A DNA stretch of 64,000 bases from Candidatus Parcubacteria bacterium. Its GTDB lineage: Bacteria; Patescibacteriota; Patescibacteriia; CAIXNZ01. Positions 17,163 through 64,000 of this stretch are shown here, piece by piece (within the stretch, counting starts at the first letter, position 1; each line of letters begins with the position of its first letter). The stretch spans positions 81,519 through 145,518 of the forward strand of contig JAPLYG010000009.1 in NCBI GenBank assembly GCA_026395685.1, in the 5' to 3' direction. Below the pieces are notes generated by a model. That model was given only the letters and a program-made list of their open reading frames with translations, did not search any database and had not been told where the DNA came from. A program made the position numbers and the translations under genes.

Positions 17163-19598
17163 TTATTTTCTGATCTGCGCGCCGAATTTCGCTTCCAAAT
17201 GCTGTAAAACTTTCTGATGAATAATCTGAACTTCATCCATGGTTAAAGTTTTGTCATCAGAACGGTATTCAATTCTGAATGCAATTGATTTCTTAGCTTC
17301 AGGAATGCCCTGGCCTTCATATACATCAAAGAAAGTAATTTTGCGGATTAAATCCTTGTCCACATCTTTAACCGCCTGATAAATTTCCTCCCAGAGAATT
17401 TTTTTGGCTATAATCATGGAAATATCCAAATCAATGCTCGGGAATTTGGGAATCGGCTTGTATTTGATCACGTCCGTATATAATGATGCTAATTTAGTTA
17501 AATTAAATTCAAAAATTGAGACCTTGGATTTCAAACCCAGCTTATCATACAAATTATCAGCGGGTTCGGAAATATAACCAATGTCTTTAGCCTGAACTAA
17601 AATTTTTATTGCCCGATTCATTTTGGCAAAAGGTAACACATCAACAATTTTCTCCAGTTTATAATCAAAATGCAATTGGCTTAATAAACCGGCAATGACA
17701 TTTTTCGCAATATAAAACGGCTTATCATTTTTCTTTTCGCAAATAATGCCGGCAATTAATTTTTCCTGCAAGGGTAAGCTTTTATCTCCTTTATCAAAGA
17801 CTTTTTCGCCTTTGGCTTCCGGCCAGAAAATCGAACCAACTTCGAATAAACCGAAATCATCATAATTGCGACAGTTGCTGACTGCATTGCCTAACAAATT
17901 AGGAATTAACGAACGGCGCAATAGATTCCAGTCTTTGGACTGCGGGTTGGCAATGTGGATATGATCTTCTACTTTTAAACCCAAACTTTTCACCTGGTCC
18001 TCGCCCACAAAAGAATAATTATAAACTTCGTTTAAACCAAAACCATAAGCCAGAAGCTGTTTGATTTTTCGTTCCAAATCACGTTCAATATTGGCTTCGG
18101 GCTTAGAGATCTCGATCATGGGCAAGCTTGATTTCAAATTGCTATAGCCATAAATCCTAATTACTTCTTCAACTAAATCCTCAGGGATGGAAATATCCTT
18201 CGTGGCGCGCCAGGTTGGTATAGTCACGGTCAAATCCTTAACGCTTTTTTTAACCTCAAAACCCAAACTTGATAAAATCTTCACGACCTTATCTTTGGGA
18301 ATTTCCTGACCGACCTTCTTAGTTATGAAATCAAAACTTAGTTTGATCGGCCCCTGATTTAATTTAAATTTCTTAACATCTTCAATTTTGGAGACTAATT
18401 TTGCCTGAGGACAAAGCTGCAAGATCAATTCAATGGCGCGCTTAATCCCCCACTCGGACAAATTAGGATCCAAAGATTTTTCAAAACGGATTGAAGCTTC
18501 AGAACGTAAACCTAATTTAGATTCTGTCTGACGAATAGAAACATGGTCAAAATTTGCTGATTCAATAATGACTTTTTTGGTTTTATTATCAATTTCAGTA
18601 TTAGCTCCGCCCATAATGCCGGCAATGGCCACTGGTTTAACCGCATCAGCAATTACCAGCATACTTTCATCCAATTCCCTGGCTTGATCATCCAGAGTAT
18701 CTATTTTTTCACCTTTTTTCGCATTACGAACGACAATGCGGTGTTCTGCCAACTTATCATAATCAAAAGCATGAAGAGGCTGGCCGATTTCCATCATCAC
18801 ATAATTGGTAATATCAACAATATTATTAATAGAGCGCATACCCACGCTAGCTACTCGCTTTTTCAGCCAGTCTGGTGATTCTTCAATCTTAATGCCTTCC
18901 AAAACTACTCCGCAATATCGCGGGCATAATTTAAAATCCTCAATTTTAATATCCAACCGACTGTCACCCTGAGGCTCTCGAAGGGTGACTTTGAAATCCT
19001 TTAATTTTTCGCCTATCAAAACGGACACTTCCCGGGCAATGCCATAATGAGACCATAAATCGGGTCGATTACTTAATGATTTATTATCAATTTCATAAAT
19101 CGTATCATCCAAACCTAAAACTTTACTCAAAGGCTCGCCTACTTTAGTTTTACTGTCCAAAATTAAAATTCCAGTGTGATCTTTACCCAAACCAAGCTCA
19201 TCTTCAGCGCACAGCATACCGCTGGATTCCTCACCGCGCACTTTAGCTTTGCTAATTTCCATGCCATTGGGTAATTTGGTTCCGATTGTTGCGACCGGAA
19301 CTTTTTGACCCACAGCGATATTTGGCGCACCACAGACAATATTCAATTTTCCTTCGTTCGCCGAAGCTTTATGCGAAGGCGAATCAATATTAACCACACA
19401 TAACTGCAACTTATCAGCATTAGGATGTTTTTTAACTTCTAAAATTTCGCCGACAATCACGCCATTCAAACTTTGCGCCTGGTCAGTCATACCTTCCACT
19501 TCAGCCGTGGATATAGTCAATTTAAAACCCAGCTCTTTGGAAGATAAAGAGTTTGGTATTTTTACAAAATCGGAAAGCCAATTTTTTGAGATATACAT
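17163..19598 (-). CDS. pheT: Phenylalanine--tRNA ligase beta subunit
   Basis: 811 aa. It has the N-terminal tRNA-binding/OB region, B3/4 and B5 domains and the C-terminal FDX-ACB domain (…GIMGGANTEIDNKT…). It carries a 27-bp palindromic insert at 18963-18989. Confidence 0.95.
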   Translation of the reverse strand: MYISKNWLSDFVKIPNSLSSKELGFKLTISTAEVEGMTDQAQSLNGVIVGEILEVKKHPNADKLQLCVVNIDSPSHKASANEGKLNIVCGAPNIAVGQKVPVATIGTKLPNGMEISKAKVRGEESSGMLCAEDELGLGKDHTGILILDSKTKVGEPLSKVLGLDDTIYEIDNKSLSNRPDLWSHYGIAREVSVLIGEKLKDFKVTLREPQGDSRLDIKIEDFKLCPRYCGVVLEGIKIEESPDWLKKRVASVGMRSINNIVDITNYVMMEIGQPLHAFDYDKLAEHRIVVRNAKKGEKIDTLDDQARELDESMLVIADAVKPVAIAGIMGGANTEIDNKTKKVIIESANFDHVSIRQTESKLGLRSEASIRFEKSLDPNLSEWGIKRAIELILQLCPQAKLVSKIEDVKKFKLNQGPIKLSFDFITKKVGQEIPKDKVVKILSSLGFEVKKSVKDLTVTIPTWRATKDISIPEDLVEEVIRIYGYSNLKSSLPMIEISKPEANIERDLERKIKQLLAYGFGLNEVYNYSFVGEDQVKSLGLKVEDHIHIANPQSKDWNLLRRSLIPNLLGNAVSNCRNYDDFGLFEVGSIFWPEAKGEKVFDKGDKSLPLQEKLIAGIICEKKNDKPFYIAKNVIAGLLSQLHFDYKLEKIVDVLPFAKMNRAIKILVQAKDIGYISEPADNLYDKLGLKSKVSIFEFNLTKLASLYTDVIKYKPIPKFPSIDLDISMIIAKKILWEEIYQAVKDVDKDLIRKITFFDVYEGQGIPEAKKSIAFRIEYRSDDKTLTMDEVQIIHQKVLQHLEAKFGAQIRK
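18963..18989. repeat. 27-bp GC-rich palindromic element (copy 1), in frame inside pheT
   Basis: gtcaccctgaggctctcgaagggtgac is a perfect inverted repeat and encodes VTLREPQGD. A copy differing at only one base is present in murI at 23465-23491. Confidence 0.8.
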
Positions 19599-19609
19599 AT
19601 TGATTTTTA

Positions 19610-20230
19610 TTAATTTTCGCGATAATCGATTTGGAATATTGATTGGTCATTTAGTTCATAATTGCGGAGGGAACTGTATTTGTATTCGCTAAGATCTTTA
19701 ACTATACCGTGTTTATATGGGTTTTTGTGAATGTAATCTAACTTCTCCTGAAATTTTTTGTCAGAATAGACATTAAAATCGTAAAATTTTGATTGCCAAA
19801 GACGATATTGCAAATTTCTTTTGTGCGGTGTCTGGTCTCTCGGGATTGCGCGCAGCATCTGCTCTGTTAACCCCATCCCCCTTCGGGTGGAGCGGAGCAT
19901 CGGCTCTGCGCCTGGGTCAGCTTGAGACAAGAGCAGATGCTCTTGTCTTCCCGAACTTGCGTATAAATCAATAATTCTGCGCGCAGCGGCTCCTTTAATC
20001 CCCTGCATAATTTTTGAAATGGTCAATTTTTCATCCTCAAAATAAATCAAACAATGCACATGATCGGGTAAAATTACATAACCATAAATTTTCAAACCAT
20101 ATTTCTGACGATAAAAATCAAATTCCTCCAATAAAATTTTACAGCAATCTTCATCCTTAAATATCGGCCGTCTTATATTCGTCACAAACGTCACGAAATG
20201 AATATCACCCGGTTGATTAATCCTAATCAT
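19610..20230 (-). CDS. Y1 (HUH) transposase family protein, IS200/RAYT-like
   Basis: HUH motif in LPDHVHCLI. The C-terminal WQSKFYDFNVYSD...YIHKNPYKHGIV...YKYSS matches the IS200-like/RAYT catalytic-Tyr region. A GC-rich in-frame insert lies at about 19825-19965. The gene sits between pheS and pheT. Confidence 0.75.
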   Translation of the reverse strand: MIRINQPGDIHFVTFVTNIRRPIFKDEDCCKILLEEFDFYRQKYGLKIYGYVILPDHVHCLIYFEDEKLTISKIMQGIKGAAARRIIDLYASSGRQEHLLLSQADPGAEPMLRSTRRGMGLTEQMLRAIPRDQTPHKRNLQYRLWQSKFYDFNVYSDKKFQEKLDYIHKNPYKHGIVKDLSEYKYSSLRNYELNDQSIFQIDYREN

Positions 20231-22450: not shown

Positions 22451-22634
22451 TGTATAGAAAGATTATTATTAAGTTTATAACATAATTTTAACTTAAATAT
22501 AAATAAAAAGCAAACCCCTTTATCCCCCTAAAAACCTAACAATTCATTGACATAAACCAATAAATAAGCTAAGGTAAATTATCGCTAGACATTTTGTATA
22601 TCTTGTCATAAAAGCGCAACTGGAGGTTTTTAAT

Positions 22635-23234
22635 GTGAAAAGGACCAAAAAAAAGCAACAGCAGCTGAACCAAGTTCTTTATTTCGCGATTATGGAACAC
22701 CATGAAAATGTATCTGCGTTTTGCCGGGATTTTCATCTGCATCCGGTCGAAGTCGGCTTGCTTTTAAATCTCAAGTCATCACCTTGCAGAGTCAATGGCA
22801 AATGGCGAAAAATTTCGCTGGATTTGGCTGAAATATTAGGCATTGACACGCATATTCTTTTTTCGGCAGAACTTTACGGCTTAGTGCAGACTGAAACTAT
22901 GGCGGAAATTCCCCTTTCTAATTTGCCACCCAATGCTCGCCTCTGCATTCCCTCAGTTCTAAACGATTATGAAATCCAAATTCTGAGACAGACGGTCAAA
23001 GATGAAATCGACCTGGCTCTGGCCAGGTTCAGTCCCAAAGAAGAAATGATCCTCAGGATGAAATTTGGTTTTGGCGCAGAACGGGAATTTACGCAGAAAG
23101 AAATCGGCCAAGCCTTTTTCATCAGCCATTCCCGCGTCGATCAAATTACCACAAAAACATTGAGGATTCTCAGTATGAGAAATCCACAGCTAAAAAATCT
23201 TATCAAAGACATTGCCGATCTGGATTTTGACTAA
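22635..23234 (+). CDS. Sigma-70 region-4 (HTH) domain protein, too short to be a full sigma factor
   Basis: The C-terminal LSPKEEMILRMKFGFGAEREFTQKEIGQAFFISHSRVDQITTKTLRILS matches sigma-70 region 4. Translation starts at GTG, with GGAGG 8 nt upstream. No region 2 is visible. Confidence 0.5.
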   Translation: MKRTKKKQQQLNQVLYFAIMEHHENVSAFCRDFHLHPVEVGLLLNLKSSPCRVNGKWRKISLDLAEILGIDTHILFSAELYGLVQTETMAEIPLSNLPPNARLCIPSVLNDYEIQILRQTVKDEIDLALARFSPKEEMILRMKFGFGAEREFTQKEIGQAFFISHSRVDQITTKTLRILSMRNPQLKNLIKDIADLDFD

Positions 23235-23239
23235 AAATA

Positions 23240-23275
23240 AACCCCGACCCTAACCGGCCGGGTTTTTTTATATGT
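23240..23275 (+). terminator. Intrinsic terminator after the sigma-like gene
   Basis: aaaCCCCGaccctaaCCGGCCGGGttttttt is a GC hairpin followed by a 7-nt T-run. Confidence 0.5.
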
Positions 23276-23362
23276 GATGGCTTAACCACGAAAATCATAT
23301 CACTAAAAAACACGAAATATATATTTCGTGTAATTTCGTGCAACATTTCGTGGTTCCGATAT

Positions 23363-24235
23363 CTACTTCAGCTCAATCTTTTCAAACTTAATTCCGCTAC
23401 CAAACCACTCCTCCCCCAACTTCTGGTAATGCGGCGACAAATCAGTCACCTGAAACTTAATATTGTCACCCTGAGGTTCTCGAAGGGTGACATCGTCGGC
23501 GTCATGCTTCGAGATCCTCAGCATGACATTCTCGTTTTTATCCAATTTTGTTTCAATCTCCGGATGCCGTGTCAAATAATCAGCCAAAGAATCAGCCACA
23601 ATTTCACCTGAATGCAAAACTTTTGTTCTTGAACTCATAATCCCCTGAATTTCCTTAAACAGAATCGGATAATGCGTACAGCCTAAAATCAAAGTATCAA
23701 CTTTTGCCAGTTTCAACGGCTGTAAATAAACTCGCAAAATCCTCTTGGCCACATCTGTTTTTTGCCAGCCTTCTTCCACCAAAGGCACCAAAAGCGGACA
23801 CGCCTGCTGTAAAACTTCCAGCTTATTATTAATTTTTCCTATTTCGATTTCATAAGCTTTGGAATTAACAGTACCTTTGGTGCCAATAACACCGATTTTC
23901 TTTTTGGCTACTTTCACTGCTTCTTCAACTACCGGCCTGATCACGCCTAATACTCGCCTATCAGCAAAATGCTGAGGCAACCAGTTTTGCTGTATCTTAG
24001 GCAAAGCTTCAGCTGACGCAGTATTACAGGCAATAATTACCAACTGGCAATCCTGCTTAAATAAAAAATCAACTGCCTGTTCCGTAAAATTATAGATTAC
24101 CTCCCGGGAGCGGTTGCCATATGGCGTCCGCGCATTGTCTCCCAGGTAAATGTAATCGTATTGAGGCAGTTTTTTGATGATTTCTTTAAGAATAATTAAG
24201 CCTCCGAGTCCGGAGTCAAAAATTCCGATCTTCAT
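23363..24235 (-). CDS. murI: Glutamate racemase
   Basis: MKIGIFDSGLGGL...IACNTAS...LGCTHYP motifs. The start is taken at MKIGIF; the ORF track starts 8 codons upstream. The C-terminus is extended and contains the in-frame palindromic element (…DVTLREPQGDNIKF…). Confidence 0.85.
   Translation of the reverse strand: MKIGIFDSGLGGLIILKEIIKKLPQYDYIYLGDNARTPYGNRSREVIYNFTEQAVDFLFKQDCQLVIIACNTASAEALPKIQQNWLPQHFADRRVLGVIRPVVEEAVKVAKKKIGVIGTKGTVNSKAYEIEIGKINNKLEVLQQACPLLVPLVEEGWQKTDVAKRILRVYLQPLKLAKVDTLILGCTHYPILFKEIQGIMSSRTKVLHSGEIVADSLADYLTRHPEIETKLDKNENVMLRISKHDADDVTLREPQGDNIKFQVTDLSPHYQKLGEEWFGSGIKFEKIELK
23465..23491. repeat. 27-bp GC-rich palindromic element (copy 2), in frame inside the murI 3' region
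   Basis: gtcaccctgaggttctcgaagggtgac differs from the pheT copy at one base and encodes the same VTLREPQGD. Confidence 0.8.
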
Positions 24236-24244
24236 AATATTCAA

Positions 24245-24332
24245 GGCGAAAACGCCCAATTTCGGACTGACAGGCTTTAGCCTGTTATATTAACACACTG
24301 AAGTGTGTCAGTCCGTTCCTTAGCGTTTTCGC
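24245..24332 (-). ncRNA. Nested multi-stem structured element immediately upstream of the murI start (candidate regulatory leader or REP-like element)
   Basis: The outer stem is ggcgaaaacgcc/ggcgttttcgc. An inner stem (ggactgaca/tgtcagtcc) encloses two hairpins (caggctttagcctg and acacactgaagtgtgt). On the murI mRNA strand the structure ends 9 nt before the AUG. Confidence 0.3.
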
Positions 24333-24374
24333 AATTCCAAGAACCAATGGCTCAATAGATTAATGGCAAATGGC

Positions 24375-25507
24375 TTTATTTAATTAATCCCAATAATTCC
24401 TTCACCTTCTCGTCCACCAGCGCCTGCGACTTGGCCTCCACATTCAACCGAATCAAGGGTTCCGTATTTGACTTGCGCAAATTAAAGCGCCAGTCAGCGT
24501 ATTCAACGGAAACGCCATCAATATGTTCGACCTTGCCGTCTGAATATTTCTCTTCAGCATTCTTTAAAACAACATCGGGGTCATTTACCGCCCGGCTTAT
24601 TGATCAAAGCTTGGCCTTTAAATTTTTTGACAGTATCTTCCACCGCCCAGGTTAAACGGGGGTCATAAATAATTTTCTTAGATTCTTTGCCGAATTTTTC
24701 CAGCATTATCTGGGCTAAAATCGCAGTCAGATAATAGCCGTCAACAAAATCTCCGTTTTCATCAAAAATAAAACAGCGGTCAGCATCAGCATCCCAGGCC
24801 ACACCCAAATCAGCCTTTTCTGATTTGACTAATGCCTCAGTTTCTATACGTCTTTCAAGAATCATGGGGTCAGGCCGTCCTTTGGGAAAATTTCCATTGG
24901 GCTCAAAATCCAAAGGCACGATTTCAATCGGTAAGAATTCTAAAATCTTATTTACTGCCACCCCTGCCATGCCAAAATTGGCATTGGCCACAATTTTCAT
25001 GGGCTTGATTGCCTTGGGATCAATAAAACTCAGACAATGCTTGACATAATCAGCTAAAATTTCTTTTTTAGTTACTTCCCCCTTTTCCGGTTCAATTATT
25101 TGTTCCTCTTTCAAAGCCTGATCACGCATTTCCATAATGCCGGTATCACCGGAAATAGCAATCGCCTTTTCCCTGACAAATTTTATTCCGTTGTATTCTT
25201 TGGGATTGTGAGAAGCGGAAATGGTCATACCCCCGCTGTAACCGTATTTTGCCACACTGAAATAAAGCATGTCCGTAGAAATTGTGCCGATATCAATAAC
25301 ATCAATTCCAGCATCTGTCAGCCCCTTGGCTGCTGATTGCCATAAACTGGGCGAAGACAAACGTACGTCTTTACCTAAGGCAATCGGACCTTTAGGTTTT
25401 ACAAATTTGACGTATGCCTGAGCGATTTTATAAACCGCATCTTCATCAATATCTGTCGGATAAATACCGCGCACGTCATAAGCCTTGAATATTGAAGGGT
25501 TGATCAT
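24375..25507 (-). pseudogene. Phosphoglucomutase/phosphomannomutase (alpha-D-phosphohexomutase) with a broken frame. It is either a pseudogene or an assembly frameshift.
   Basis: The 308-aa ORF (24581-25507) carries the active-site TISASHNPKEYNGIKF and metal-binding WDADADRCFIF and ends ...QALINKPGGK*. A different frame (24375-24595) encodes VNDPDVVLKNAEEKYSDGKVEHIDGVSVEYADWRFNLRKSNTEPLIRLNVEA..., the typical PMM/PGM C-terminal domain 4. The GEMSGH-type sugar-binding loop is not seen. Confidence 0.6.
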
Positions 25508-38438: not shown

Positions 38439-38476
38439 ACGGGGCTCCGCTCCGAAGCTTCGGTGCGGAGCCCCGT
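38439..38476. repeat. 38-nt near-perfect GC-rich palindrome (REP-like hairpin) in the intergenic region
   Basis: acggggctccgcTccgaagcttcggTgcggagccccgt has only two central mismatches. It shares the GCGGAGC/GCTCCGC core with the hairpins at 25561-25597 and 19880-19900. Confidence 0.6.
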
Positions 38477-41383: not shown

Positions 41384-41531
41384 TATGATAAATTATTGAT
41401 TTTATTGATAATATGTATTAATAATAGCCTATTAACCCAAACTTTTCAACAAAATAAAAAGACAGAAATCCCTAAATTTCCGTCTTTCTCACATAACTTT
41501 AAACTTTGCACTTTAAACTTTACACTTCAAG

Positions 41532-41603: not shown

Positions 41604-41858
41604 TTATTTAATTTGTGTGTACTCCATTGCCCGCCAGGGGCGGGCAGGCTGCCTTTGGCGGAAACTACGAGGACCTACTAAGTTGAAAATTCAAAGTGCA
41701 AAGTTTAAAGTTACAGTTAGTAGTTTAAATTTTTGGAATATATTTTTATTTTACGATACCCAATTAGCGTAACGAATATCCAGACCGAATAACGAAAAAC
41801 TATTTTAAAAGGGAGACAAAAATATCTCCCTCTCAAGTATAGAATATTTCTAAAAATT

Positions 41859-61996: not shown

Positions 61997-62112
61997 AAAA
62001 TTGAATTTAAAATTCAAAATGCAAAGTGCAAAATTACAAATCAAAAATTAAAATTTTGGTATTCTTTTATTTTAATAAAACATTCCAGAATTTTAAACTA
62101 ACAACTGCAACT

Positions 62113-62457
62113 TTAAACTTTGAACTTTGAACTTTCAACTTCATCCTCCAGGGCCTCCTTCCGCACCACCTTCGTCACATCCTTTTCCACTTTATCCAAT
62201 TTAACCAAAGCCCGAAACATTAAATAAAACAGAATCAAAATAGAAATATATATCACCAGATCAACGCCGCGACCGACGCCGACCATATTAGCGGCATAGG
62301 AAGTAACATCGGGAAATAAGACTAAAAATGCTACTGCAAACCAAAAAATCGTCCACAAAATTAGTTCCTGCAGGGAAATATTCTTGTCCTTGTAGCGCAT
62401 GGCGACTTTGATTACGGCGAACAGGATGAAAAGGATTAGAATAATTTTAATTAACAT
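62113..62457 (-). CDS. DUF2304-like small membrane protein (GT2 partner)
   Basis: 114 aa with three TM helices and a charged C-terminal tail. Proteins of this type normally sit directly beside DPM1-like GT2 genes. Confidence 0.55.
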   Translation of the reverse strand: MLIKIILILFILFAVIKVAMRYKDKNISLQELILWTIFWFAVAFLVLFPDVTSYAANMVGVGRGVDLVIYISILILFYLMFRALVKLDKVEKDVTKVVRKEALEDEVESSKFKV

Positions 62458-62634: not shown

Positions 62635-63240
62635 TTATATTTCATCAATTAATCCGGGATACTTTGTATAAATATATTGATAATTTGCCGCATCAAAAAT
62701 GTTATGCTTTGCGGGATTATTATAAAGATATCGCATATGTTGATTAAAATCATCATAATTGCGAATATAATGATCGTGAAGTGATTTTTGCCAATGAAAT
62801 TTTACATACAAAGTTTGATTTAATCCATATTTTGCCACAAATTGACGGCGCGTTGTAATCAAATATTCATAATGCTTTTCGATTATCTCTTCATAAATTT
62901 TATATTCCTCCCCCAATTGAAGGAGCGATTTGCAAATCGCTCCTTCGTCGACATAACCTAAGATAAAATTTATATTCCTGGTATAGTGTCTTTTGATAAA
63001 TTGCATTATTTTCGATAAATCCATCGCTTCATACGGCAAAAACATTAAATGAAAATGATCCAATAATATTACAAACGAATATAAATCAAATTTGTGCCTT
63101 TTTTTCGCCAATTTTAAAATTTCAATAAACAACTCGCAAAAAATCGACTCCTTAAAATATTCAACCCGGTTATCGGCAACACCTGTCACAAAATAAGTCG
63201 CCCCTTCAAAATATATCCGTTTTTGCGCTCCTTTATGCAT
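62635..63240 (-). CDS. Y1 (HUH) transposase family protein, IS200/RAYT-like (second copy)
   Basis: HUH motif in LLDHFHLMF. The C-terminal WQKSLHDHYIRNYDDFNQHMRYLYNNPAKHNI...YQYI is conserved with the 19610-20230 protein. A perfect 28-bp palindrome lies at 62919-62946 in frame. Confidence 0.75.
   Translation of the reverse strand: MHKGAQKRIYFEGATYFVTGVADNRVEYFKESIFCELFIEILKLAKKRHKFDLYSFVILLDHFHLMFLPYEAMDLSKIMQFIKRHYTRNINFILGYVDEGAICKSLLQLGEEYKIYEEIIEKHYEYLITTRRQFVAKYGLNQTLYVKFHWQKSLHDHYIRNYDDFNQHMRYLYNNPAKHNIFDAANYQYIYTKYPGLIDEI
62919..62946. repeat. Perfect 28-bp palindrome inside the second Y1 transposase gene
   Basis: gaaggagcgatttgcaaatcgctccttc equals its own reverse complement and encodes EGAICKSLL in frame. 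Confidence 0.8.
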
Positions 63241-63915: not shown

Positions 63916-64000
63916 AAAAGAGTTTAAAGTTCAAAGTTTAAAATGCAAAGTTACAGTGTAAAATTCAAAATTTTGGAATATATATTATTTAAAAAAACTT

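What the first reader, a model, noticed from the sequence alone, without database searches (positions are those of the whole stretch)
18963..18989. The same 27-bp palindromic element sits in frame inside two unrelated essential genes (pheT here, murI at 23465-23491)
gtcaccctgagg(c/t)tctcgaagggtgac appears twice with a single substitution. Both copies are in coding DNA and both translate to VTLREPQGD. In pheT the sequence is KDFKVTLREPQGDSRLDIK; in murI it is DDVTLREPQGDNIKF. The element is GC-rich (about 60%) against roughly 35% in the host genes, and it is a perfect hairpin. This is the signature of a small mobile palindromic element that inserts in frame into genes, like the Rickettsia palindromic elements (RPEs). 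It also resembles REP elements mobilised by RAYT-type Y1 transposases, two of which are encoded in this window. I am not aware of this being described for CPR-like genomes.
Basis: seen in the sequence. Interest (0 to 1): 0.85.

Follow-up and report, generated by a model that had tools for sequence, protein, structure and literature searches.

The report
Mobile DNA hairpin inside essential genes
A 27-base DNA hairpin that occurs in many bacterial phyla sits in frame inside two essential genes of this small-genome (CPR) bacterium; it behaves like a known kind of hairpin repeat, and in other genomes it lies next to a small GIY-YIG nuclease gene rather than next to the transposases encoded in this window.

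Summary
GTCACCCTGAGG(C/T)TCTCGAAGGGTGAC lies at 18963-18989 in pheT and at 23465-23491 in murI, and both copies read VTLREPQGD. It is an 8-9 bp stem with an asymmetric 11-nt top, not a perfect palindrome. I found a third, inverted copy at 23501-23527 whose stem changes are compensatory. The murI insert is therefore a 63-bp inverted doublet of 21 codons.

A 92%-identical MurI orthologue lacks exactly these 63 bp, and another carries the doublet flipped. In PheT the hairpin replaces a variable linker rather than simply adding 27 bp.

The hairpin is widespread: at least 118 loci in 12 or more phyla, against 0.07 expected by chance. The loop is constant and the stems covary. G·T wobbles fall on one strand, which points to folding as a single strand.

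Each of the two Y1 (RAYT) transposases in the window has its own, different hairpin. In other genomes the 27-mer brackets small stand-alone GIY-YIG nuclease genes, the layout described in 2025 for Ssn nucleases and their repeats. It does not fit the published consensus for those repeats.

Verdict: a new member of a known kind of hairpin repeat. Its in-frame presence in CPR housekeeping genes appears not to have been described.

The parts
18963..18989 (+). Hairpin copy 1, a singlet. The + strand is the reference (folding) strand. Sequence GTCACCCT|GAGGCTCTCGA|AGGGTGAC with a T at 18962. pheT reads it antisense as VTLREPQGD (PheT residues 204-212, in the linker before the B3_4 domain).
23465..23491 (+). 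Hairpin copy 2, GTCACCCT|GAGGTTCTCGA|AGGGTGAC, flanked by T (23464) and A (23492). murI reads it antisense as VTLREPQGD.
23501..23527 (-). Hairpin copy 3, newly found and in the opposite orientation. On the minus strand it reads GTCATGCT|GAGGATCTCGA|AGCATGAC. The stem change is compensatory. murI reads it in sense as VMLRISKHD.
23465..23527 (.). 63-bp inverted doublet (27 + 9 + 27 nt, REPIN-like) making up 21 codons inserted in murI. It can fold into one long hairpin (DNA -19 kcal/mol). These exact 63 bp are absent from the orthologous site in L119 and L122. The same site in L121 holds the doublet with its two stems swapped, that is, flipped.
17163..19598 (-). pheT, the host gene of copy 1. 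It is 100% identical to an NCBI 'Candidatus Parcubacteria bacterium' MAG protein (P0121).
23363..24238 (-). murI, the host gene of copies 2 and 3. The mechanical ORF runs to 24259 (TTG), but orthologues start at MKIG, which is 24238.

Best explanation
The 27-mer belongs to a widespread family of short DNA hairpin repeats of the REP/REPIN type. The family has a constant 11-nt apical part (GAGGYTCTCGA, with a sister form GAGCNTGTCGA), a freely covarying 8-9 bp stem that starts (T)GTCA, and non-conserved flanks.

One particular strand folds, as single-stranded DNA. Copies occur as singlets, as inverted doublets and as tandem arrays, mostly between genes. They are gained, lost, flipped and swapped for other family members at a given site.

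In the gene-dense CPR genomes some copies land in coding DNA. They persist only where three conditions hold: the length is a multiple of three (27 nt, or 63 nt for the doublet), one of the three stop-free frames is in register, and the nine or 21 extra residues fall in a surface loop or inter-domain linker. The in-frame state is therefore an outcome of selection, not a property of the insertion mechanism.

The most likely protein partner is a small stand-alone GIY-YIG nuclease of the Ssn/UPF0213 type. In other genomes its gene is bracketed by these hairpins. The two Y1 (RAYT) transposases in the window are less likely partners. No such nuclease gene lies in this 64-kb window.

Shown: the repeat family, the stem covariation, the strand asymmetry, the presence/absence and flip in murI, the turnover of variants in pheT, and the adjacency to GIY-YIG genes.

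Inferred: that the nuclease acts on these hairpins, and that cleavage followed by copying from another repeat (or transposition) spreads and replaces them.
For: 1. Distribution. The loci come from Patescibacteria, Bacteroidota/Chlorobi, Marinimicrobia, Cloacimonadota, Desulfobacterota, Binatia, Omnitrophota, Nitrospinota, Planctomycetota, Chloroflexota and Spirochaetota.

2. Covariation. The free stem positions covary: CC-GG, TG-CA, GT-AC, CT-AG, CA-TG, TGGT-ACCA. Of the 86 loop matches that were not selected through their stems, 45 have at least 7 of 8 stem pairs; my calculation gives about 0.6% expected by chance.

3. Strand asymmetry. G·T wobbles on the reference strand number 65, against 11 A·C pairs (binomial p = 2e-10; among distinct stems, 22 against 6). 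Orientation relative to neighbouring genes is unbiased (17 sense, 28 antisense). Within genes both orientations and all three open frames are used. This points to single-stranded DNA rather than mRNA.

4. REP-like arrangement. Flanks are not conserved except for a 5' T in 79% of copies. Inverted doublets have 1-19 nt spacers, tandem arrays occur, and copies lie between convergent genes more often than between divergent ones, 27 against 7.

5. Mobility in murI. The empty site in L119 and L122 reads AAT|AAT ATT. The window has AAT[63 bp]AAT ATT, and L121 has the flipped doublet at the same point.

6. Turnover in pheT. At one site, orthologues of 60-90% identity carry four stem/loop combinations (VTLREPQGD, VMVRQAHHD, VTLRQAQGD, VMVREPHHD). 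Others have no recognisable hairpin.

7. Tolerance. The murI insert is modelled as a low-confidence beta-hairpin excursion (pLDDT 58-77 against above 90 for the core). The pheT copy lies between Pfam domains.

8. Partner. Nine loci encode a GIY-YIG-only protein, about 95 aa where intact (Pfam PF01541; nearest solved structures are the UPF0213 proteins 1zg2 and 1ywl). In 7 of the 9 a copy lies within 100 bp; only 1 of 200,000 random placements reached this. Upstream copies are mostly in sense and downstream copies mostly antisense, so they form inverted brackets. In L011 and L110 the ORF ends in the hairpin's TGA. One of the nine is a Falkowbacteria MAG (L030). This is the NTS-ssnA-NTS layout of Chenal et al. 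2025 (PMC11893778), where the nuclease cuts only one strand of the hairpin, and only as ssDNA.
Against: - No GIY-YIG ORF was found in the window or in the close-relative loci L119-L127. I could not read the rest of the genome.
- The hairpin does not fit the published SRM consensus: 0 of 183 copies match, while the NTS positive control does. Here the loop is constant and the stem varies, which is the reverse of NTS.
- Membership of the neighbouring nucleases in the Ssn family proper (CDD cd10448) could not be tested. Their nearest solved relatives are UPF0213 proteins.
- Only nine GIY-YIG loci were available. Some of them are homologous to each other (L011 and L110) and some of the genes are truncated (L030, L110).
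- Ssn is a nuclease, not a demonstrated transposase, so the way the repeats spread is unknown.
- In PheT the hairpin replaces a linker of similar length (33 nt against 30 or 36 nt). A simple insertion model does not explain this.
- The window holds only three copies, all inside genes. Activity in this particular genome is not shown.
Confidence: 0.6

Rival explanations
1. This is a classical REP/REPIN mobilised by a Y1 HUH transposase (RAYT). The transposase would be either one of the two in the window or another elsewhere in the genome.
For: - The element looks like a REP: a short hairpin, inverted doublets, stem covariation and one-strand asymmetry.
- Two RAYT genes lie in the window (Pfam Y1_Tnp).
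- A RAYT subclass 2.6 REP of Planctomyces limnophilus has a similar top, CTGAGG-TCYT-CCGAAG, flanking its RAYT gene (PMC6006769 Table S1).
- RAYT genes of one subclass themselves carry in-frame REPs (PMC6006769). Both window RAYTs do as well.
Against: - The RAYT1 family is flanked by and contains a different hairpin, NNNNGAGCATCTGCTCNNNN (L124 3907, 4284, 4316; L125; L126).
- RAYT2 contains GGAGCGATTTGCAAATCGCTCC, and its homologue in L127 is flanked by a different repeat again.
- Neither window RAYT is flanked by the 27-mer.
- About 0.8 Mb of 27-mer-bearing loci hold only three RAYT- or IS200-like ORFs. Only the one in L039 lies near a copy, and it has its own hairpin.
- The 5' GT[AG]G tag is absent.
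Confidence: 0.2
2. The hairpins are relics in this lineage. They were inherited vertically from old insertions and are kept hairpin-shaped only by gene conversion among copies or by mutation bias. No active partner protein remains.
For: - The window has only three copies and no partner gene.
- PheT orthologues across 60-100% identity hold a hairpin at the same site and in the same orientation.
- Several neighbouring GIY-YIG genes are truncated.
Against: - The 92%-identical MurI lacks the doublet, and another orthologue has it flipped.
- From their protein sequences, the PheT hairpins of proteins 89% identical differ in about 10 of 27 bases, and every inferred change keeps the pairing (my inference).
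- Nested insertions into hairpin loops are seen.
Confidence: 0.12
3. It is a functional RNA hairpin, for example an mRNA stabiliser, a processing site or a regulatory element, selected at the transcript level.
For: - The G·T wobble asymmetry would also fit RNA folding.
- The RNA fold is stable: -15 kcal/mol, z = -3.8.
- REPs have been proposed to act as RNA elements (PMC3733652).
Against: - Copies lie in both orientations relative to transcription, inside genes (2 antisense and 1 sense in the window) and between genes (17 sense, 28 antisense).
- No Rfam family matches.
- Presence or absence among near-identical orthologues argues against a gene-specific role.
Confidence: 0.05
4. VTLREPQGD is a conserved peptide motif selected at the protein level, an ancient shared feature of PheT and MurI.
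For: The two proteins share the identical nonapeptide.
Against: - Most copies of the same DNA are intergenic.
- The DNA is read in three different frames and orientations: VTLRLSKGD, VTLREPQGD and SPFESLRVT.
- The closest orthologues lack it.
- Conservation is at the nucleotide and pairing level.
Confidence: 0.01

Closest known systems
Ssn nucleases and their hairpin repeats (NTS/dRS3 and 'SRM'; Chenal et al., Nat Commun 2025, PMC11893778)
   Same: - A short hairpin repeat present in many copies, starting (C/T)GTCA.
- Only one strand is relevant.
- Copies bracket, in inverted orientation, the gene of a GIY-YIG-only protein of about 95 aa.
- Found across many phyla.
   Different: - Our hairpin does not match the published SRM consensus (0 of 183 copies).
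- It has a constant 11-nt top and a variable stem. NTS has a constant stem and a variable loop.
- The GTC/GAC ends pair with each other (a 'double foot').
- Membership of the neighbouring nucleases in cd10448 is untested.
- No such gene lies in this window.
- In the main text of that paper I found no mention of CPR or Bacteroidota (term search), nor of in-frame copies in the parts I read. Its supplements were not available.
REP/REPIN-RAYT systems (Nunvar 2010; Bertels and Rainey 2011; Ton-Hoang 2012; Quentin et al. 2018, PMC6006769)
   Same: - 20-40 nt imperfect palindromes.
- Inverted doublets as the likely mobile unit, and clusters.
- Stem covariation.
- ssDNA hairpin recognition.
- In-frame copies inside genes are documented, including inside RAYT genes.
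- The Planctomyces limnophilus subclass 2.6 REP has a similar CTGAGG...CGAAG top.
   Different: - There is no GT[AG]G tag.
- The hairpin does not flank the RAYT genes examined here. Those have their own hairpins.
Rickettsia palindromic elements (RPEs; Ogata et al. 2000) and the CGTC-tagged REPs of Di Nocera et al. 2013 (PMC3733652)
   Same: - Palindromic repeats inserted in frame into housekeeping genes of a reduced genome and tolerated in surface regions.
- RPE-4 and RPE-6 are CGTC REPs.
- The CGTC tag is often TGTC.
   Different: - Classical RPE-1 elements are about 100-150 bp, against 27 bp here.
- CGTC REPs have 4-5 nt loops and an unpaired CCA-like tail, against an 11-nt top and paired ends here.
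- The host lineages differ.

Membership tests
REP/REPIN-RAYT | Short (20-40 nt) imperfect palindrome, repeated and interspersed, often as inverted doublets | tested here: met
   27 nt with an 8-9 bp stem. 138 exact and 183 loop-anchored copies in 118 loci, including about 30 loci of one Falkowbacteria MAG. 47 inverted pairs have spacers mostly of 1-19 nt. The window holds 3 copies, one singlet and one doublet.
REP/REPIN-RAYT | Conserved 5' GT[AG]G tetranucleotide next to the hairpin | tested here: not met
   The 5' end is (T)GTCA, and it pairs with TGAC(A).
REP/REPIN-RAYT | The repeat family flanks its cognate single-copy Y1 (RAYT) gene | tested here: not met
   The RAYT1 family is flanked by and contains the GAGCATCTGCTC hairpin. 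RAYT2 contains GGAGC..GCTCC, and L127 is flanked by another repeat. Only 3 RAYT- or IS200-like ORFs occur in the 27-mer loci; only the one in L039 lies near a copy, and it has its own hairpin.
Ssn / SRM (GIY-YIG ssDNA nuclease with hairpin repeats) | Gene for a single-domain GIY-YIG protein of about 95 aa, with the repeats in its 5' and 3' flanks | tested here: met
   Met in other genomes, not in this window. 9 loci have such a gene (Pfam PF01541 only), and in 7 of them a copy lies within 100 bp (1 of 200,000 simulations). L065 and L074 are bracketed on both sides. Upstream copies are mostly in sense and downstream copies mostly antisense.
Ssn / SRM (GIY-YIG ssDNA nuclease with hairpin repeats) | The repeat fits the published SRM consensus HGTCWYN(0-2)YYVSBRHN(0-5)WNVSBRGN(0-2)RNCYNB | tested here: not met
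   0 of 183 copies fit on either strand. Two NTS control sequences fit. The window has 0 SRM matches.
Ssn / SRM (GIY-YIG ssDNA nuclease with hairpin repeats) | [quoted passage not shown] | not testable with these tools
   No CDD search was available. Pfam gives only GIY-YIG, NCBIfam gives nothing, and the nearest solved structures are UPF0213 proteins 1zg2 and 1ywl.
Ssn / SRM (GIY-YIG ssDNA nuclease with hairpin repeats) | Strand-specific cleavage of the hairpin as ssDNA only | not testable with these tools
   Only indirect support: G·T wobbles 65 against A·C 11 on the reference strand, and no bias relative to transcription.
Rickettsia palindromic elements (RPE) | Palindromic repeat inserted in frame in functional genes and absent from orthologues | tested here: met
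   The murI doublet is absent from orthologues of 92% and 85% identity. The family is in frame in TsaD, ValRS, Dus and a UvrD-type helicase of other CPR genomes. The pheT case is a replacement of a linker, not a clean insertion.
Rickettsia palindromic elements (RPE) | Sequence or length class of a described RPE family, in a Rickettsiales host | tested here: not met
   The element is 27 nt and the host is Patescibacteria. No paper in the library holds the sequence or its peptides.

The most novel reading that the evidence does not exclude
A stand-alone GIY-YIG nuclease, not a Y1 transposase, drives a cross-phylum family of 27-nt ssDNA hairpins. It cuts one strand at the hairpin, and repair copies another family member into the break. 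This would explain same-site swaps of stem and loop variants (PheT), flipping of the doublet (MurI) and nested insertions. In gene-dense CPR genomes the process would continually rewrite surface loops of essential proteins, acting as a built-in source of peptide variation.
Probability: 0.2. Interest if true: 0.8.

Novelty: new member of a known kind. Interest (0 to 1): 0.55.

Why it matters
CPR (Patescibacteria) genomes are small and gene-dense, so repeats that persist inside their essential genes are unexpected. I found no description of them: no paper in the searchable library holds this sequence, its peptides, or REP elements together with Patescibacteria.

The finding gives a concrete, testable extension of the Ssn nuclease story of 2025. 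It is a second hairpin architecture that the published consensus misses. It spans CPR, the Bacteroidota group and several other phyla, and candidate nucleases and substrates can be synthesised directly.

There is also a practical consequence. The 9- and 21-residue inserts (VTLREPQGD, VMLRISKHD, SPFESLRVT and similar) are DNA-driven. They should not be read as functional protein motifs in annotation, alignment or phylogeny of CPR proteins.

Tried and rejected
- Rfam searches of the pheT site, the whole window and 20 loci found only two tRNAs.
- The 2.9 million viral contigs hold 0 copies, so there is no sign of phage carriage.
- The plasmid collection gave one intergenic partial copy in a Hymenobacter plasmid.
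- I tested RAYT1 and RAYT2 as partners and rejected both.
- I asked whether the non-hairpin PheT linkers (VEVKESTKPSEK, VESFKEGTEK) are decayed hairpins. Nucleotide similarity is too low to say.
- I tried to reach beyond the window along the 164-kb contig. Four look-ups of window proteins found nothing on record.
- The one metagenome scan, used for RAYT2 homologues, returned a single 1-kb locus.
- A GC spike is not a useful signal: the 27-mer is only about 1.6 SD above the window mean.
- The apparent G..C to C..G change at loop positions 12 and 15 between the two loop forms could not be assigned to a base pair. Two fold models remain open: GAG/CTC with a GA bulge, or tandem G·A pairs.
Full report
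**1. Observation**

The 27-mer GTCACCCTGAGG(C/T)TCTCGAAGGGTGAC is at window 18963-18989 and 23465-23491. Shuffled sequence gave no matches. Both copies lie in long minus-strand ORFs. One is PheT (17163-19598) and the other is MurI (23363-24259; orthologues start at 24238). Both have full Pfam support, and both copies are read as VTLREPQGD.

PheT is 100% identical to a protein of an NCBI 'Candidatus Parcubacteria' MAG, and the nearest named relatives are Buchananbacteria and Falkowbacteria. The window therefore comes from a CPR/Patescibacteria genome.

- The sequence is not a perfect palindrome. It is an 8-9 bp stem with an asymmetric 11-nt top.
- The window is 39.8% GC, so 59% GC for a 27-mer is only about 1.6 SD above the mean.
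- A third copy was missed. It lies at 23501-23527 on the other strand, 9 bp from copy 2, and has a compensatory stem change, CC..GG to TG..CA. murI reads it as VMLRISKHD.

The murI insert is thus a 63-bp inverted doublet (27 + 9 + 27 nt, 21 codons) that can fold into one long hairpin.

**2. A widespread hairpin family**

I scanned one genome per GTDB species with GTCANNCTGAGGNTCTCGAAGNNTGAC. About 0.07 would be expected by chance. The loci come from these groups:
- several CPR groups: Falkow-, Kerfeld-, Buchanan-, Peregrini-, Dojka- and Saccharibacteria;
- many Bacteroidota, plus Chlorobi and Melioribacter;
- Marinimicrobia, Fidelibacterota and Cloacimonadota;
- 'Deltaproteobacteria' and Binatia;
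- Omnitrophota, Nitrospinota, Planctomycetota, Chloroflexota and Spirochaetota.

The four free stem positions covary. A search anchored only on the loop showed that the rest of the stem also varies (for example GTCATGGT/ACCATGAC), and it revealed a sister loop, GAGCNTGTCGA. Of the 86 loop matches not selected through their stems, 45 have at least 7 of 8 pairs. My calculation gives about 0.6% expected by chance.

Flanks are not conserved, except for a T just 5' of the element in 79% of copies. Copies occur as singlets, as inverted doublets with spacers mostly of 1-19 nt, and as 44-45-bp tandem arrays in Chitinophagaceae. They lie between convergent genes more often than between divergent ones. 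No Rfam family matches. None of 2.9 million viral contigs holds a copy.

**3. Which molecule folds**

G·T wobbles in the stem fall on the strand written above 65 times. The other strand would have them 11 times (p = 2e-10; among distinct stems, 22 against 6). One strand is therefore the folded one.

That strand is not preferentially the transcribed one. Intergenic singlets are 17 sense and 28 antisense to their neighbouring genes. Inside genes both orientations occur. This favours a single-stranded DNA hairpin over an mRNA element.

**4. Evidence for gain, loss and exchange**

*MurI.* The closest orthologues (92%, 89% and 85% identity) have the baseline length of 267 aa and read KLDKNSNNI-FYVTDLS. 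The window and several others carry the 21-residue insert.

At the DNA level, relatives L119 and L122 read AAT|AAT ATT where the window reads AAT[63 bp]AAT ATT. L121 carries the doublet at the same point with its two stems exchanged, as if reverse-complemented, and still in frame (VTPSLSKGD-AVG-VMLREPQHD). Other orthologues have extra sequence nested inside the first hairpin's loop, or a sister-loop variant. A nested copy is also seen in intergenic DNA of L029.

*PheT.* This case differs. The segment between KV and LDIK is 30 nt in baseline orthologues (VESFKEGTEK), 36 nt in L119 and L122, and 33 nt in the window. The hairpin therefore occupies a hypervariable linker rather than adding 27 nt.

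Orthologues of 60-90% identity carry four different stem/loop combinations at this one site, always in the same orientation. From the protein sequences, the hairpins of proteins 89% identical differ in about 10 of 27 bases while every inferred change keeps the pairing. That is better explained by replacement with another family member than by point mutation. This last step is inference.

**5. Why in frame**

The element has stop codons in three of its six frames. The three open frames give VTLR(L/F/I)SKGD, VTLREPQGD and SPFESLRVT, and all three are found inside genes.

By a conservative ORF criterion, genic copies make up 11 of 68 in CPR loci and 4 of 115 elsewhere (one of those 4, L121, is actually from a CPR relative). 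The genes hit are real ones:
- in CPR genomes: TsaD, Dus, ValRS and a UvrD/PD-(D/E)XK helicase;
- outside CPR: a phytoene synthase and a histidine kinase.

Doublet spacers in general are not multiples of three. The in-frame state is therefore best read as what selection leaves behind.

An AlphaFold model of MurI puts the 21 residues in a low-confidence beta-hairpin excursion (pLDDT 58-77, core above 90) before the last strand. The PheT copy lies between the tRNA_bind and B3_4 domains.

**6. The transposases in the window are not the partners**

RAYT1 (19610-20230) lies between pheS and pheT. A 64%-identical homologue lies just downstream of pheS in a distant relative (L124). It is absent in L119 and L122.

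The RAYT1 family carries an in-frame hairpin with core GAGCATCTGCTC between its HUH and Y motifs, and the same hairpin flanks the gene in L124. This is the behaviour described for RAYT subclass 2.4 (PMC6006769).

RAYT2 (62635-63240) contains its own 12-bp-stem hairpin at 62919-62946. Its only retrieved homologue is flanked by yet another repeat.

Neither gene is flanked by the 27-mer. RAYT-like ORFs are almost absent from the 118 loci.

**7. A better candidate partner**

I clustered the ORFs within 2 kb of the hairpins across loci. The top recurring family was a GIY-YIG-only protein of about 95 aa. Nine loci from Bacteroidota, Chlorobi, Spirochaetota, 'Deltaproteobacteria', Binatia and one Falkowbacteria MAG have such a gene. 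In seven of them a copy lies within 100 bp (1 of 200,000 random placements).

Upstream copies are mostly in sense and downstream copies mostly antisense, so they bracket the gene in inverted orientation. In two loci the ORF ends in the hairpin's TGA.

This is the arrangement reported in 2025 for Ssn nucleases. Those are 94-aa GIY-YIG enzymes that cut one strand of their hairpin repeat (NTS/dRS3, a CGTC-tagged REP) only as ssDNA, and their genes are flanked by those repeats in many phyla (PMC11893778). Di Nocera et al. had already equated CGTC REPs with Rickettsia RPE-4 and RPE-6, and noted TGTC variants of the tag (PMC3733652).

The limits of this link are as follows.
- Our hairpin does not fit the published SRM consensus (0 of 183 copies).
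- Its conservation pattern is the reverse of NTS.
- I could not test the nucleases for membership of cd10448. Their nearest solved relatives are UPF0213 proteins.
- No such gene is in the window or in the relatives' loci.
- I could not read the rest of the genome.

**8. Verdict**

The proposed link to the window's RAYTs does not hold.

The element is a new member of the hairpin-repeat kind (REP/SRM). It is probably tied to Ssn-like GIY-YIG nucleases. Its in-frame presence in essential CPR genes was not found in the searchable literature.

The mechanism of spread is inferred, not shown. I favour nuclease-triggered copying over transposition.

Noticed in passing
window 19610-20230 (internal hairpin 19925-19948): A RAYT-type Y1 transposase gene is wedged between pheS and pheT with 9-11 bp gaps. 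It carries an in-frame GC-rich palindromic insert (core GAGCATCTGCTC) between its HUH and Y motifs. A homologue sits just downstream of pheS in a distant relative (L124), where the same hairpin also flanks the gene. The gene is absent in closer relatives L119 and L122.
   Followed up: yes
window 62635-63240 (hairpin 62919-62946): The second RAYT-type gene contains a perfect 12-bp-stem hairpin, GAAGGAGCGATTTGCAAATCGCTCCTTC, in frame. The one homologue retrieved (L127) is flanked by a different repeat (GCGACGAAT...CGCGAATGATAATTCGCG).
   Followed up: partly
window 19359-19385 (minus strand, PheT residues 72-80): A second 27-bp in-frame insert in pheT (GATTCGCCTTCGCATAAAGCTTCGGCG, read as DSPSHKASA). 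Among 34 aligned orthologues only one (P0126) shares it. It belongs to a different GC-rich family, with a 6-bp outer stem TTCGCC/GGCGAA.
   Followed up: partly
MurI orthologues P0017, P0037, P0043, P0045 and N-termini of P0006, P0010, P0019, P0035 (alignment A1): Other recurring inserts occur in CPR MurI proteins. One is FPPKADPP(R/Q/L)AE at a different loop. Another is N-terminal leaders such as MPARGGSAFGGK. They look like the two reading directions of another GC-rich palindrome family.
   Followed up: no
L011, L019, L110 (also L008, L035, L037), about 150 nt downstream of the hairpin: In the Deltaproteobacteria and Binatia MAGs the hairpin lies inside a larger conserved block. The small GIY-YIG gene is on one side in L011 and L110. 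About 150 nt of conserved non-coding-looking sequence (…GGCGGGCTAACCGAGACACCTCGGCCCAATCTC…) is on the other side. No Rfam family matches.
   Followed up: partly
L072 220-380, L079, L081, L118: In Chitinophagaceae (Hanamia, Ginsengibacter) the hairpin forms tandem arrays with a 44-45 bp period. The 17-18 nt spacers resemble each other (AGTAGTNNATCGNTCTTT).
   Followed up: no
L029 about 1230-1330; MurI P0010 and P0017; PheT P0128: There are nested insertions. A fragment of the sister-loop form sits inside the loop of another hairpin copy, which suggests that the hairpin top is itself a target.
   Followed up: no
window 24260-25507: The phosphoglucomutase-like gene upstream of murI looks broken. 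Residues 1-305 and 374-447 of the L122 orthologue align in different frames, and about 68 codons (domain III) are missing. An 87-nt imperfect palindrome (24246-24332) lies between it and murI.
   Followed up: partly
window 22518-23377: The stretch between murI and the M50 protease gene, including a Sigma70_r4 ORF (22635-23234), does not align with relative L119 (359 bp there). In L122 it is larger and holds two additional genes. This intergene region is variable.
   Followed up: no
window 41681-41746, 62004-62069, 63921-63986; also 41495-41529 and 62109-62143: AT-rich repeated intergenic motifs (AGTTTAAAGTTCAAAGT...TTTTGGAATATAT) lie next to tRNA genes and upstream of several genes. They may be promoter-region repeats.
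   Followed up: no
window 38439-38476 and 41628-41646: GC-rich intergenic palindromes (ACGGGGCTCCGCTCCGAAGCTTCGGTGCGGAGCCCCGT and TGCCCGCCAGGGGCGGGCA) are unrelated to the 27-mer. They may be terminators or further repeat families.
   Followed up: no
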